Of a stretch of DNA of 37,551 bases, positions 672-36,558 are shown one piece after another. The stretch lies in NCBI GenBank assembly GCA_023231475.1, contig JALJEE010001519.1, forward strand, positions 1-37,551. Direction: 5' to 3'. The notes below the pieces were generated by a model that saw nothing but the letters and a program-made list of their open reading frames with translations, was not told the DNA's origin and made no database searches. Every line of letters starts with the position of its first letter. The stretch's first letter is position 1. The stretch is from Seison nebaliae. Its lineage: Eukaryota. The position numbers and the translations under genes are program-made.

Positions 672-2119
672 TCAATTGGACGGATTCTCTTTCATCAATT
701 CGATGTCCTCCTTCACCATTTCCTTCACCAATTCCTTCAAATTCCCCAAAAACAAAATAGACGATTGTCAAATGAAACGACTAAACTTTGAAAGAGATTT
801 TCGGCGTCCAGTTTAAAATCCGTTTCGCTTTCGTCGCATCGCCGCGGAGAAAATCCTTTAATTCAAACGACCAAATGTTGAGATAATTAAACGACACTAA
901 TTAAAATTCACTAAACGACTTCGGATGGACGAAAATATTTTTCATTAACATCCACTCTCAATTTCCCGTTCTCTTTACAATGACCCATCATCGATTTACC
1001 TTCACCCGACCATTCGATCGTCTCTCCGATTAGACCGAACGCCTCAACACACAAATCCTTCACCGAATGAACTTGATTTGTTGCGATAATGAAATCGTTC
1101 GGTTCCTCCACTTGCAACATCAACCACATCGCCTCCACATAGTCTTTAGCGTGACCCCAATCACGTTCAGCGTCCAAATTCCCCAACGAAACTTTCTCCT
1201 GGAGACTCAGATGAATTTTTGCGACTGCTCTCGTCACTTTTCTAGTAACGAAATTCTCCCCTCGACGTGGCGACTCGTGATTGAAGAGAATACCATTCAC
1301 CGCGAACATACCATACGCCTCCCGGTAGTTCTTGGTGACCCAATAGGCGTAAACCTTAGCACAACCTGCCCACATAAATTTATCATCATTATCATCAAAC
1401 TTTTCAGCGTATTCCCTCTAACCATATGGCGATCGTGGATAGAATGGTGTATTCTCCGTCTGAGGAATCTCTCGCACCGAACCAAACATTTCGGACGTTG
1501 AGGCTTGATAGAATTTCACCTGAAATTCACATTTTTATTCAAAATTTATTTTTGGAAAAAATTTTTTCCATTTTTTTAAAAAAAAAAAATTTTGAAAAAT
1601 TTTTTCTTTTTAACATTCGCTCCCCAATTGAGATGTTGACAAAACTGTTTTTGTATAAGTTACTTGAAAATAACCTTATCTTCTAATCGACATGTTCGAA
1701 TGGCGTCCAATAATCGGAGGACGCCTAAACCATCAACACTTCCTGTATATTCGGCCAAGTCGAATGAGATTTTTACGTGAGATTGTGCTCCCAAATTGTA
1801 GATTTCGTCCGGTTCAACTACTCGTAAAATTTTCACGAGAGAACTACTATCAGTTAAATCTCCGTAATGAAGAATCATTTCTTGAATTGAGAAGGTGAAT
1901 GGATGAATTGGAGAAGGAGATGTAACTTCCTTCCGTATGAGTCACTTCATTCTCATAGAGATGATTAATTCTTCCCAAATTGAAGGAGGACGATCGTCGA
2001 ACGATACCATGGACGATATATCCTTTGGAGAGTAACAATTCGGCTAAATAACTGCCATCCTGACCCGTTATGCCGGAGATGAGAGCGATCCTCGTCTTTT
2101 CCGTATCTCCACTCGACAT
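672..2119 (-). CDS. GMDS: GDP-mannose 4,6-dehydratase, 6 exons: 2119-1927, 1880-1675, 1519-1423, 1365-917, 855-787, 734-672
   Basis: Motifs [91 protein letters not shown]. Five GT-AG introns (46, 155, 57, 61, 52 nt) restore a continuous frame to TGA at 674-672. Confidence 0.97.
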
Positions 2120-2696
2120 TTAATCGCAGACGTTGAAAGAATAAGGATTAATCAAAGAATTGGACGGAGGAATGGAATCTAATGGGAAATGAGAACTGTT
2201 AGAACGATTGAGTTGAGAGATTGTCGTCGTCAATGATCGGGTGGTGATCCACCCTCGAAATTCACCCTCAAACAAAATTGTTCACTTGAAATTTTTAGTT
2301 TAATAAAATGAAATATTTTAATATACTTATCGTCGGTAATAATTTACATAATCATCCGTTCCATTGAACATAAACAAACGTCAACTTCCATATAGTAACA
2401 TATGCACATAGATCTAATAATAATTCATTTGCCACTTCAACTTATTTGGCTTCTTCTTCTTTTTCTGTCGACTTAAACACTTCACATACATAATGAAGTA
2501 CGTGGATTTTTTTGTAGGCTATTCATATAATCAGTTCTTGTACAACACTCATATATCAATGGCACTTTAATAATTTACCGCTCATATTTTTCATTTATAA
2601 TTTATTTAGTTAGTTTATATCATCAGATTTTATCTGACTTATATCGCTTGAATGGAATACGTTTTCTCATCAGTTCATTATGAAATATGAGTTCCT

Positions 2697-2722
2697 TCTC
2701 TCTCTCTCTCTCTCTCTCTCTC
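2697..2722. repeat. (CT)n microsatellite
   Basis: Direct CT dinucleotide run. Confidence 0.9.
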
Positions 2723-34660: not shown

Positions 34661-35775
34661 CAGTAGATTTATTTATGTCGAAAAAAATTTTTTTTTTTTC
34701 TCTTTTCGAATGTGAAATATTAATTGAAATATGTGAAATTAGTCGAATAATGAATCGAATGTGAAAAATAATATTAAAGCAACTTGCTATTGCTTTCACA
34801 TATTTTAAATAAATTTTTACTTTAATTAAATTTTCTTTTACTTGAAATTCCCGACGGGATAAATTGAAGTTTGTAGTAGTGGTAGATGTGGTAGGAGGTC
34901 GGTACGTTGGATGAGACATGTGTCTTATCGTTGTAGCGATAGAAATATCTTACTAACGTAACGGAAATGATTCGATTTTATTCTCATTTCAATTACGTTT
35001 GTTACAAAACATTTTTTTTTATTGAAATTCCCGTCGGTCATTCCCCATTACGTTCATTACAAAAGATTTAGTAAAAAAAAATGACCAAGAATTTTTATTT
35101 TTTTTTTATTTAAAACTAATTTCAACTAAATAATTAACTAAATATTTCAGAATTATTTTGTTTATTAGTTTAATCCCAGAGGGGAATGACAGAAAATTTA
35201 TAATTAGATTAGAATTTCGAGTAAATTGGAGATGGAATACAATTTATTTATACAATATTATTATTATCATTAAAATTTCATGAATTAGATGACGTTCGAA
35301 ATTGATTTATTTGTTTTTATATTATGAGGAGCTCAATTTGCCAAATCAAAATATTTATCACTTCTACAATTAGGTAGTTATGTTAATAATTCTTACTCGT
35401 TCCGAAACACGAACGATATCCGTAAACGAAAACTTATTTGATCATTAGTATTAATACTTATATACTTATATCATTCTTATTATATGTATATGTTATATAT
35501 ACATAATACTTATTATTTCAATTAATTCATCGAATTATAATTTTAAAATCATTAATTAGAATTTTTTTTATTATACGTAGTCTGATTATAAACTACGTCT
35601 GATATTGATCTTTACATTCATTCGCTTAGGAATTTTAAAAGTCGCATTATAACTAATAGTATTATTAGCTCAATTGTCTAACATGGAAAGTTAATGGAAT
35701 TTATTCTTTTGCAGCAAATTTGTTCTAACATTTTAGAAGAATAAACATACAAATTGGAAAAGTATAATCGGACAA

Positions 35776-36558
35776 ATGTTTCTTGTTCTTCTTATTCGAG
35801 TTTACTTGTTGTTGTGTCAAACGGGTTTTGGTAGTACAATTAGCTATGTCGCTAAAACACCAATAACATTTGAGATGTCGGAAATAATTTGTCAATTAAG
35901 AATATGTCAAAACCAAACGGATTGTTTTGGAATTTTTAGTTTTGACGGAAAATTGTCATTGATAAAGAATATCGATCGAAAATTATTGGATATAAAATTC
36001 GATATGTTTTTGGAATCAAGTTATTTCCTTCTTCCCAATAAAAACTTCTATTTTAAATACTAATCAGAATATGAATTTATTTATGACCACCTTCTACAAT
36101 TTAAACATCTCAGTATATTCAGCAGTAATTATCTAACAATTACTAGTTACGGATTTACTCACACGAAATCGTTTGATGATTATTCGAAAGGATTCATTAT
36201 CAATTCTCAACAATTCTATATCGGAAATGAATTCCTGTACAAATTAAGTCGACTATGGGATTTATGCATGCGTTTCTACATTTATTATTCACATTCTTCA
36301 GCTGTTCATGTCGAACATTGTGGAGTTCATTTCAGTTCTAAAACTAACAAATACAGAGCGACAATCGGTCATGTTATGAGCGACGATTCTTCCAAAGATA
36401 TGACTTACTGTTCTTATGGAAATCCAGCAAATGAAGGTGAATTTACAGTAAATGGAAAATATGGTTTTTGGGGAACATGTTACGTTCCGTATGATAAAGT
36501 TTTAATTTTTACAGACTACGCCGAAGGAATTATAATGAAAGTAAAATTCAATTTCTAA
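35776..36558 (+). CDS. Secreted protein with a Cys-rich (PAN-like) N-terminus and a partial fibrinogen-C-like domain; exons 35776-36019, 36068-36558
   Basis: Signal-peptide-like start, CQLRICQNQTDCFG. A 48-nt GTT-AG intron (36020-36067, with TACTAAT branch-like site) joins two ORFs in frame. KSFDDYSKGF...FYIGNEFLYKLS resembles the FReD motif W..Y..GFG....FWLGNE.IH.LT. Confidence 0.7.

What the first reader, a model, noticed from the sequence alone, without database searches (positions are those of the whole stretch)
735..36067. Rewired 5' splice-site code: all 24 reconstructed introns start GTT, none GTA or GTG
Seen in sequence, donors by gene. GMDS: 1926 GTTACA, 1674 GTTATT, 1422 GTTAGA, 916 GTTTAG, 786 GTTTAG. 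DH/PH-like: 6278 GTTTTT, 6149 GTTCGT, 4088 GTTCCA. RhoGEF: 20676 GTTAAC, 19614 GTTAGA, 17032 GTTTAA, 16768 GTTTAA. DGAT1: 25263 GTTACA, 25398 GTTTTC, 25484 GTTTTT, 25669 GTTATT, 25924 GTTAGA. JmjC: 28252 GTTTGT, 28439 GTTAGA, 28622 GTTAGT. CYC1: 29546 GTTTTT, 29358 GTTAAT. DR1: 31043 GTTATA. FReD-like: 36020 GTTATT. Most junctions are fixed by conserved protein motifs and phase. +5G occurs in only 7 of 24 and -1G in 6 of 24. Established: the major-spliceosome consensus is AG|GURAGU, +3 is read by U1 nucleotide 6, and +4 to +6 later by the U6 ACAGAGA box. GTT-biased donors are known in a few protists such as Entamoeba (GTTTGT), but not as the rule in animals to my knowledge. Inference: this lineage has a compensatory U1 5' end (A at position 6) and/or altered U6, U1C, LUC7 or PRP8, reducing the donor to essentially GUU.
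Basis: partly seen in the sequence, partly recalled or inferred. Interest (0 to 1): 0.92.

Follow-up and report, generated by a model that had tools for sequence, protein, structure and literature searches.

The report
Seison rotifer introns all start GTT
In the rotifer relative Seison nebaliae, every intron pinned down in this stretch of genome begins GTT instead of the GTA/GTG usual in animals, likely because its splicing machinery lost a methyl mark on the U6 RNA and would now need a U at the third intron position.

Summary
The window is a whole contig of Seison nebaliae (Syndermata). All 24 donors are present and start GTT. Fifteen match the deposited gene models and are the best GT-AG junction against non-Seison homolog profiles. 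Seven more are forced by stop codons, one is likely, one (4088) is unsupported. +3T is 19/19 in the best-fixed set (p≈1e-6 against intron T content). The orthologous JmjC intron starts GTA/GTG in 88 of 92 unspliced gene calls from other organisms, so that donor was converted, not newly inserted. +4A and +5G stay weakly enriched, and nearby canonical-looking donors are bypassed. The mechanism is not shown. A U1 gene was found in the DNA runs, but nucleotide 6 could not be read and it may be the host's. No RNA reads or genome-wide count were available. Ten literature searches found no report of this in rotifers; the scan noted GTT donors before in protists (Bonamia), on other DNA.

The parts
1881..1926 (-). 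GMDS intron 1, GTTACA..AAG, 46 nt, phase 1
   Evidence: deposited model; best junction by 19.6 bits
1520..1674 (-). GMDS intron 2, GTTATT..CAG, 155 nt
1366..1422 (-). GMDS intron 3, GTTAGA..CAG, 57 nt
856..916 (-). GMDS intron 4, GTTTAG..AAG, 61 nt
735..786 (-). GMDS intron 5, GTTTAG..AAG, 52 nt
4043..4088 (-).
   Evidence: ORF length unchanged with or without it
6100..6149 (-). Intron GTTCGT..CAG, 50 nt
   Evidence: forced by stop; alternative donor GTGTTC 6194 not excluded
6234..6278 (-). Likely intron GTTTTT..AAG, 45 nt, in frame
   Evidence: top of donor-neutral scan, 13.8 bits; not forced by a stop
14899..14985 (-).
16667..16768 (-). RhoGEF intron 4, GTTTAA..TAG, 102 nt
   Evidence: forced by stop; Pfam RhoGEF match runs to the donor
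16961..17032 (-). RhoGEF intron 3, GTTTAA..CAG, 72 nt
   Evidence: forced by stop, inside the split RhoGEF domain
19556..19614 (-). RhoGEF intron 2, GTTAGA..CAG, 59 nt
   Evidence: forced by stop; alternatives delete 15-19 residues
20622..20676 (-). RhoGEF intron 1, GTTAAC..TAG, 55 nt
   Evidence: only frame-keeping donor from ATG 20737
25263..25309 (+). DGAT1 intron 1, GTTACA..TAG, 47 nt
25398..25442 (+). DGAT1 intron 2, GTTTTC..TAG, 45 nt
25484..25532 (+). DGAT1 intron 3, GTTTTT..CAG, 49 nt
25669..25817 (+). DGAT1 intron 4, GTTATT..TAG, 149 nt
25924..25980 (+). DGAT1 intron 5, GTTAGA..CAG, 57 nt
28240..28245 (+). In-frame canonical-looking site TG|GTATGT, bypassed for TG|GTTTGT 12 nt downstream
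   Evidence: 24.1 bits worse against homolog profile
28252..28302 (+). JmjC-family intron 1, GTTTGT..TAG, 51 nt, ancestral position after WYVGW
   Evidence: orthologous donor GTR in 88 of 92
28439..28488 (+). JmjC-family intron 2, GTTAGA..TAG, 50 nt
28622..28666 (+). JmjC-family intron 3, GTTAGT..TAG, 45 nt
29310..29358 (-). CYC1 intron 2, GTTAAT..AAG, 49 nt
29460..29546 (-). CYC1 intron 1, GTTTTT..AAG, 87 nt
31043..31089 (+). DR1/NC2-beta intron, GTTATA..TAG, 47 nt
   Evidence: forced by stop; homology to 1JFI chain B runs to codon 116, just before the donor
36020..36067 (+). Fibrinogen-domain gene intron, GTTATT..CAG, 48 nt
   Evidence: forced by stop; only frame-keeping donor

Best explanation
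The short GT-AG introns in this Seison nebaliae contig all start GTT, likely because the spliceosome enforces a U at intron position +3 during the hand-over to U6 snRNA, where a G44•U wobble pair would replace the helix cap normally supplied by the m6A43 mark whose writer METTL16 appears to be lost. Shown here: real introns, fixed +3T, weak residual +4A/+5G, and conversion of one ancestral GTR donor. From papers: +3 faces U6 G44; m6A43 caps the U6/donor helix before G44:+3A forms; METTL16 is scored missing in Seison only. Inferred: that the rule is genome-wide, that METTL16 is truly absent, that G44•U+3 is the enforcing contact, and that sites are first found by intron definition (45-60 nt, AT-rich) with weak U1 pairing. 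A secondary U1 change is not excluded.
For: [quoted passage not shown] Both donor switches quoted for worm mett-10 mutants in the passages I saw go from GUGAG to GUU sites (PMC11347140). In the tunicate Fritillaria, whose donors are overhauled, the U1 5' end is strictly preserved and U6 m6A is reduced (PMC13326754). +3T behaves as non-compensable: if it acted like the +4A or +5G preference, P(24/24) would be 0.0002-0.02, and sites with few possible U1 pairs are used while stronger GTR sites nearby are not. U1 nt 6 was T in 142 of 142 matches and no non-T variant was found in the metagenome collection.
Against: BUSCO 'Missing' can reflect divergence: the paper counts 76 Seison-only missing genes of 954, and I could not search for METTL16 myself. 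The known signature of METTL16 loss is +4U and AG//GU, but here +4A is still enriched (13/24, p=0.024), +4T is not (9/24) and -1G is not (6/24). METTL16-less yeasts keep GUAUGU, and no GTAT or GTGT donor is used here, so loss of the mark alone does not explain +3U. The only characterised lineage with fixed +3U (Entamoeba) did change U1. The G44•U wobble is my inference (the Entamoeba preprint notes possible extra U6 pairing), not a structure. U6 itself was not examined.
Confidence: 0.4

Rival explanations
1. Compensatory U1: the U1 5' end carries A (or G) at nt 6, so U is the pairing base at +3.
For: Entamoeba U1 ACAAAC matches GUUUGU (10.1101/2022.06.08.495308). A canonical U1 gives no discrimination of true donors from 58 nearby GT decoys (AUC 0.49; 18 of 24 donors at or above -1 kcal/mol), while a 6A end gives AUC 0.74 (partly circular, as it encodes +3T). 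Residual +4A and +5G lie in the normal U1 register; if METTL16 is lost, +4A is more easily explained by U1 nt 5.
Against: U1 nt 6 is invariant in 142 of 142 matches and 0 variants were found (the three-motif pattern would miss divergent U1s). Additive pairing predicts some compensated GTA donors, and none is seen. Fritillaria kept its U1 5' end; worm and Arabidopsis have extra GTT tandem donors with no variant U1 found. The one U1 gene laid from the DNA runs is conventional in stem-loop II, though nt 6 is unread.
Confidence: 0.32
2. A protein reader (diverged U1C, LUC7 or a PRP8 pocket) enforces U+3, with normal snRNAs and normal U6 methylation.
For: Non-compensable +3T; Seison lacks or has diverged several splicing BUSCOs (SPF45, LSm2, SNRNP40 missing; FAM32A, SYF2 fragmented); the acceptor -3 rule is relaxed too (AAG 6/24).
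Against: No sequence of these proteins was examined; PRP8 and SNRNP27 are scored complete.
Confidence: 0.12
3. GTT is only a strong bias (for example 60-85% genome-wide, perhaps shared with other rotifers), exaggerated by a small sample, T-rich introns and reader or annotation preference.
For: One contig, eight genes, no spliced reads; 4088 unsupported; unresolved candidate at 14899 with GTA/GTG options; sister-taxon donors were not obtained.
Against: 15 of 15 junctions fixed by homolog profiles with no donor preference; lower 95% bound 0.85-0.88 and p=1e-6 against T content; a spliceosome acts genome-wide.
Confidence: 0.12
4. The introns are a burst of introner-like insertions that happen to start GTT.
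For: Short, uniform lengths (17 of 24 are 45-57 nt).
Against: No similarity among the 24 beyond shuffles (best score 52, shuffled maxima 33-61) and junction repeats of 0-4 nt; JmjC intron 1 sits at a position shared with other organisms, where it starts GTR in 88 of 92.
Confidence: 0.03

Closest known systems
Entamoeba transformed donors GUUUGU(U) with co-evolved U1 ACAAAC (Roy & Bowser, 10.1101/2022.06.08.495308; read: parts 1-2 of 9 and passages)
   Same: Lineage-wide U at +3 in GT-AG introns.
   Different: Entamoeba fixes the whole hexamer (88-90% GUUUGU) in an intron-poor protist. Here only +3 is fixed, +4 is A or T, +5G is 29%, and 8 genes carry 22 or more introns. A U1 change is not shown.
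Fritillaria borealis non-canonical introns with reduced U6 m6A43 and preserved U1 5' end (PMC13326754; abstract and passages)
   Same: An animal with overhauled donor recognition linked to U6 m6A rather than to U1 sequence.
   Different: Fritillaria abandons GT/AG in 95% of introns and keeps METTL16. Seison keeps GT-AG, fixes +3 and is scored as lacking METTL16.
METTL16/SNRNP27K-linked +4A to +4U switch (PMC10581693, PMC9803359, PMC11347140; passages)
   Same: Donor preference tied to the U6 ACAGA step with unchanged snRNA sequence.
   Different: The known effect is at +4 and favours AG//GU. Here the fixed position is +3, +4A persists and -1G is not enriched.
Shifted (+1) U1 register at GUUAAGU-type donors (Roca & Krainer 2009, recalled; lead from scan notes e1-7353764, e1-9362562)
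   Same: Donors start GTT; two sites read GTTTAGT (916, 786).
   Different: Shifted-register positions are not enriched (-1A 9/24, +5A 6/24, +6G 2/24, +7T 15/24; all p>0.1), whereas normal-register +5G is.
GA/GG donors in the copepod Eurytemora affinis (PMC5714493; search listing and start of abstract only)
   Same: An animal with a lineage-specific donor anomaly.
   Different: Affects +2 in about 12% of introns, not a near-fixed +3.

Membership tests
U2-type (major) spliceosomal intron | GT..AG termini that restore the reading frame | tested here: met
U2-type (major) spliceosomal intron | Purine at +3 (GTRAGT consensus) | tested here: not met
   0 of 24; consensus from PMC9311317 and PMC1779574 passages. 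A consensus feature, not a requirement: this is the variant trait.
U2-type (major) spliceosomal intron | Removal shown in spliced RNA | not testable with these tools
   runs offered were DNA contigs
U12-type (minor) intron | RTATCCTTT donor (motif recalled) | tested here: not met
   no donor fits; ZMAT5 scored missing in Seison and acanthocephalans
Entamoeba-type co-evolved donor/U1 system | Near-universal U at +3 | tested here: met
   19/19 and 24/24 in this contig; genome-wide not tested
Entamoeba-type co-evolved donor/U1 system | Fixed GUUUGU hexamer | tested here: not met
   GTTTGT 1 of 24; +4T not enriched
Entamoeba-type co-evolved donor/U1 system | U1 5' end changed to pair with the donor | tested here: inconclusive
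   U1 gene contig found, nt 6 not listable, source uncertain
Shifted-register donors | Consensus displaced by one base (-1A, +5A, +6G, +7T) | tested here: not met
METTL16-loss donor class | METTL16 absent | tested here: inconclusive
   published BUSCO row only; no own search possible
METTL16-loss donor class | +4U preferred and AG//GU enriched | tested here: not met
   +4T 9/24 (expected 11.8), -1G 6/24 (expected 4.1, p=0.22); -2A 13/24 is enriched, p=0.018
Introner elements | Sequence similarity among introns at novel positions | tested here: not met

The most novel reading that the evidence does not exclude
Seison nebaliae is an animal that lost the U6 m6A writer METTL16 and rewrote tens of thousands of ancestral GTA/GTG donors to an obligatory GUU, making +3 a third invariant intron base read by U6 G44, possibly with a U1 whose nt 6 has also changed: a different 5' splice-site code inside a standard GT-AG animal spliceosome.
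Probability: 0.35. Interest if true: 0.9.

Novelty: new variant of a known kind. Interest (0 to 1): 0.75.

Why it matters
Purine at +3 is among the most conserved donor features after GT. An intron-bearing animal that has replaced it with a fixed U shows that the donor code can be rewritten across existing introns. It makes two open questions directly testable with public data. First, whether snRNA sequence (U1) or the U6 hand-over step dictates donor consensus. Second, what an animal spliceosome does without U6 m6A. It also warns that generic gene finders and splice-site scorers will misjudge genes in this lineage.

Tried and rejected
No whole genome is held for this window, so no genome-wide logo, U1/U6 search or protein inventory was possible. 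Sequencing runs: no RNA holder listed; runs laid on 27500-31560 were contigs of DNA type and showed no splice joints. No snRNA gene in the window (3 weak chance-level hits). Reading U1: patterns in viral and genome collections gave 5 true U1 genes among 17 loci. One invertebrate-type U1 (L010) used as bait pulled one U1 gene contig from each of X1 and X2 and none from X6 and X7; only 1 of 12 differing letters was listed, nt 6 was not among the listable places, and the contig may belong to the crustacean host (depth 5.4/16 against 7-9.4/14.7 for the window; upstream 17 of 30 G+C; no match to other U1 flanks). Codon test for avoidance of GTT in exons was uninformative (Val GTT 34%, GTA 7%, but Leu CTA also 7%; sense/antisense difference confounded by Asn/Gln-rich proteins). 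Shifted register, Entamoeba hexamer, U12 and introner readings were rejected. No consistent branch-point motif was seen. The DR1 second exon had no significant PDB match. Sister-taxon donors were not obtained; the best JmjC hit was a Seison paralog, not another rotifer. PMC10599564 (part 2), PMC11347168 and PMC10125929 (passages) gave nothing on rotifer donors; supplements of PMC8351084 had no hits for six splicing terms. An acceptor mis-set by one base (16668) was corrected to 16667 from then on; a wrong RhoGEF start was corrected.
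Full report
Identity. 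Searches with window exons returned 100% identical deposited proteins named Seison nebaliae SNEBB_000783 (DGAT1), SNEBB_000778 (GMDS) and SNEBB_000785 (CYC1), each on a contig of 37,551 nt, so the window is a whole contig of this seisonid. The species lives on Nebalia crustaceans, has a genome of about 46 Mb and two strains (PMC8351084, passages).

Observation. All 24 hexamers are where stated. An annotation may share a donor bias, so I varied each junction within 60 nt over all stop-free GT/GC-AG and AT-AC options and scored them against homolog profiles (45, 45, 38 and 45 sequences picked by length from the hit lists; one JmjC row is a Seison paralog). At JmjC intron 1 an in-frame TG|GTATGT 12 nt upstream loses by 24 bits to TG|GTTTGT. 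Seven further introns are forced by stops, one (6278) is likely and one (4088) is unsupported. One possible extra intron in RhoGEF is unresolved and has GTA/GTG options. A low-depth divergent contig in two runs matches 28220-28255, through GTTT, then has 82 letters where the window has 87, as expected if a variable intron starts there (weak).

Shape of the signal. +3T is 19 of 19 in the best-fixed set (p=1.4e-6) and 24 of 24 (p=3.8e-8) against an intron T content of 0.49; the lower 95% bound is 0.85-0.88. +4A (13/24, p=0.024), +5G (7/24, p=6e-4) and -2A (13/24, p=0.018) are enriched; -1G, -3C and +6T are not. Shifted-register and Entamoeba-hexamer positions are not enriched. Introns are 45-155 nt, and 6 of 24 acceptors are AAG. 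A canonical U1 end does not separate true donors from 58 nearby GT sites (AUC 0.49); a 6A end reaches 0.74 but ranks the true site best or tied in only 15 of 24. Length and composition must therefore help define introns (inference).

Converted, not inserted. JmjC intron 1 splits a Trp codon, so unspliced gene calls reveal the donor. Of 149 homologs, 13 lacked the motif and 44 were spliced. Of the 92 unspliced, 78 stop right after Trp (GTAA, GTAG or GTGA), 10 read Tyr (GTAY) and 4 read Leu or Phe (GTT): 88 of 92 GTR (one Tyr case was moved by hand from the 'spliced' bin). Most rows are unlabelled; those looked up include ostracod, sponge and cnidarian clusters. The 24 introns share no sequence beyond shuffles. 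That four of five GMDS introns match human positions is recalled and comes from no call.

U1. A three-motif U1 pattern with non-T at nt 6 found nothing in the metagenome collection. The same pattern left open found 130 stretches (capped); across all loci held, 142 matches (121 distinct) had T at nt 6 in every case, with 3 variants at nt 5. Laying DNA contigs on an invertebrate-type U1 found one U1 gene contig in X1 and in X2, conventional in stem-loop II, but nt 6 could not be read and the contig may be host DNA. The U1 question stays open.

U6 side. The BUSCO sheet of PMC12256650 (supplement rows) scores METTL16 missing in Seison and present or fragmented in the other 24 of 25 syndermatans. 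SPF45 and LSm2 are also missing in Seison only; PRP8, SNRNP27, SLU7 and SF3B1 are complete. I did not check that this assembly is the window's, and 76 of 954 BUSCOs are Seison-only losses, so divergence could explain the score. [quoted passage not shown] Worm mett-10 mutants move from GURAG sites, in the two quoted examples to AA//GUUGU and UG//GUUG (PMC11347140, passages). Fritillaria keeps its U1 5' end and loses most U6 m6A (PMC13326754, abstract and passages). I infer that a G44•U+3 wobble could replace the cap, which fits a position that other pairs do not compensate. Against this, the documented effect of METTL16 loss is +4U with AG//GU (PMC10581693, passages), which is not seen here, and Entamoeba, the one characterised +3U lineage, changed U1. 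I put the U6-step model at 0.40, U1 nt 6 at 0.32, a protein reader at 0.12, a weaker or sampled bias at 0.12 and introners at 0.03; the first two can both be true.

Novelty. Ten searches of the held library returned no description of donor consensus in Seison or other rotifers and no animal with near-fixed +3U; subscription journals are not covered. Worm and Arabidopsis have more GTT among tandem donors, with no variant U1 found (PMC1779574, passages). My recollection that bdelloid introns often start GTT comes from no call and was not tested, so Seison may be the extreme of a rotifer trend. Earlier scan notes report GTT donors in Bonamia and shifted-register GTT classes in other protists (unchecked), nothing in this genome or its relatives, and nothing linking animal GTT donors to METTL16. 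Verdict: a real feature and a new variant of lineage-wide donor transformation, apparently the first in an animal that keeps GT-AG; the mechanism is inferred.

Noticed in passing
acceptors at 1881, 856, 735, 6234, 29460, 29310: Six of 24 acceptors are AAG rather than YAG, so the -3 rule also looks relaxed; FAM32A is fragmented and SPF45 missing in the published BUSCO sheet.
   Followed up: partly
window 27500-31560: Window contigs lie at about half the depth of other contigs in the same DNA runs (X2 14.7 against 26-29; X1 7-9.4 against about 14): hemizygous, sex-linked or a split haplotype?
   Followed up: no
window 30160-30340 (-): A T-rich acceptor (TTTCAG, 30166) sits just before the CYC1 ATG: 5'-UTR intron or trans-splice acceptor. 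The best-scoring donors for it in a donor-neutral scan are both GTT (30334, 30229).
   Followed up: partly
window 14899-14990 (-): AT-rich intron-like stretch inside the RhoGEF 3' ORF; donor unresolved among GTT, GTA, GTG or none.
   Followed up: partly
window 32600-34600: Relatively GC-rich stretch of short broken ORFs without Pfam hits; may be a decayed mobile element.
   Followed up: no
window 27180-27390, 29470-29540 and 37243-37551: Short tandem repeats: after DGAT1, inside CYC1 intron 1, and at the contig end.
   Followed up: no
window 10893-13682 (-) and 23387-24745 (-): A 929-codon ORF with a weak RRM match and low-complexity M/N-rich tail, and an intronless SHMT whose exact protein is deposited.
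   Followed up: no
L069:2331-2401, L105:301 onward: Environmental U1 genes with A or G at nt 5 (3 of 142 matches), i.e. candidate compensatory U1s for +4U or +4C donors in unidentified eukaryotes.
   Followed up: no
L003, L005, L007, L010, L013: Five prokaryotic MAGs in the genome collection contain animal-type U1 genes, i.e. eukaryotic contaminant contigs.
   Followed up: no
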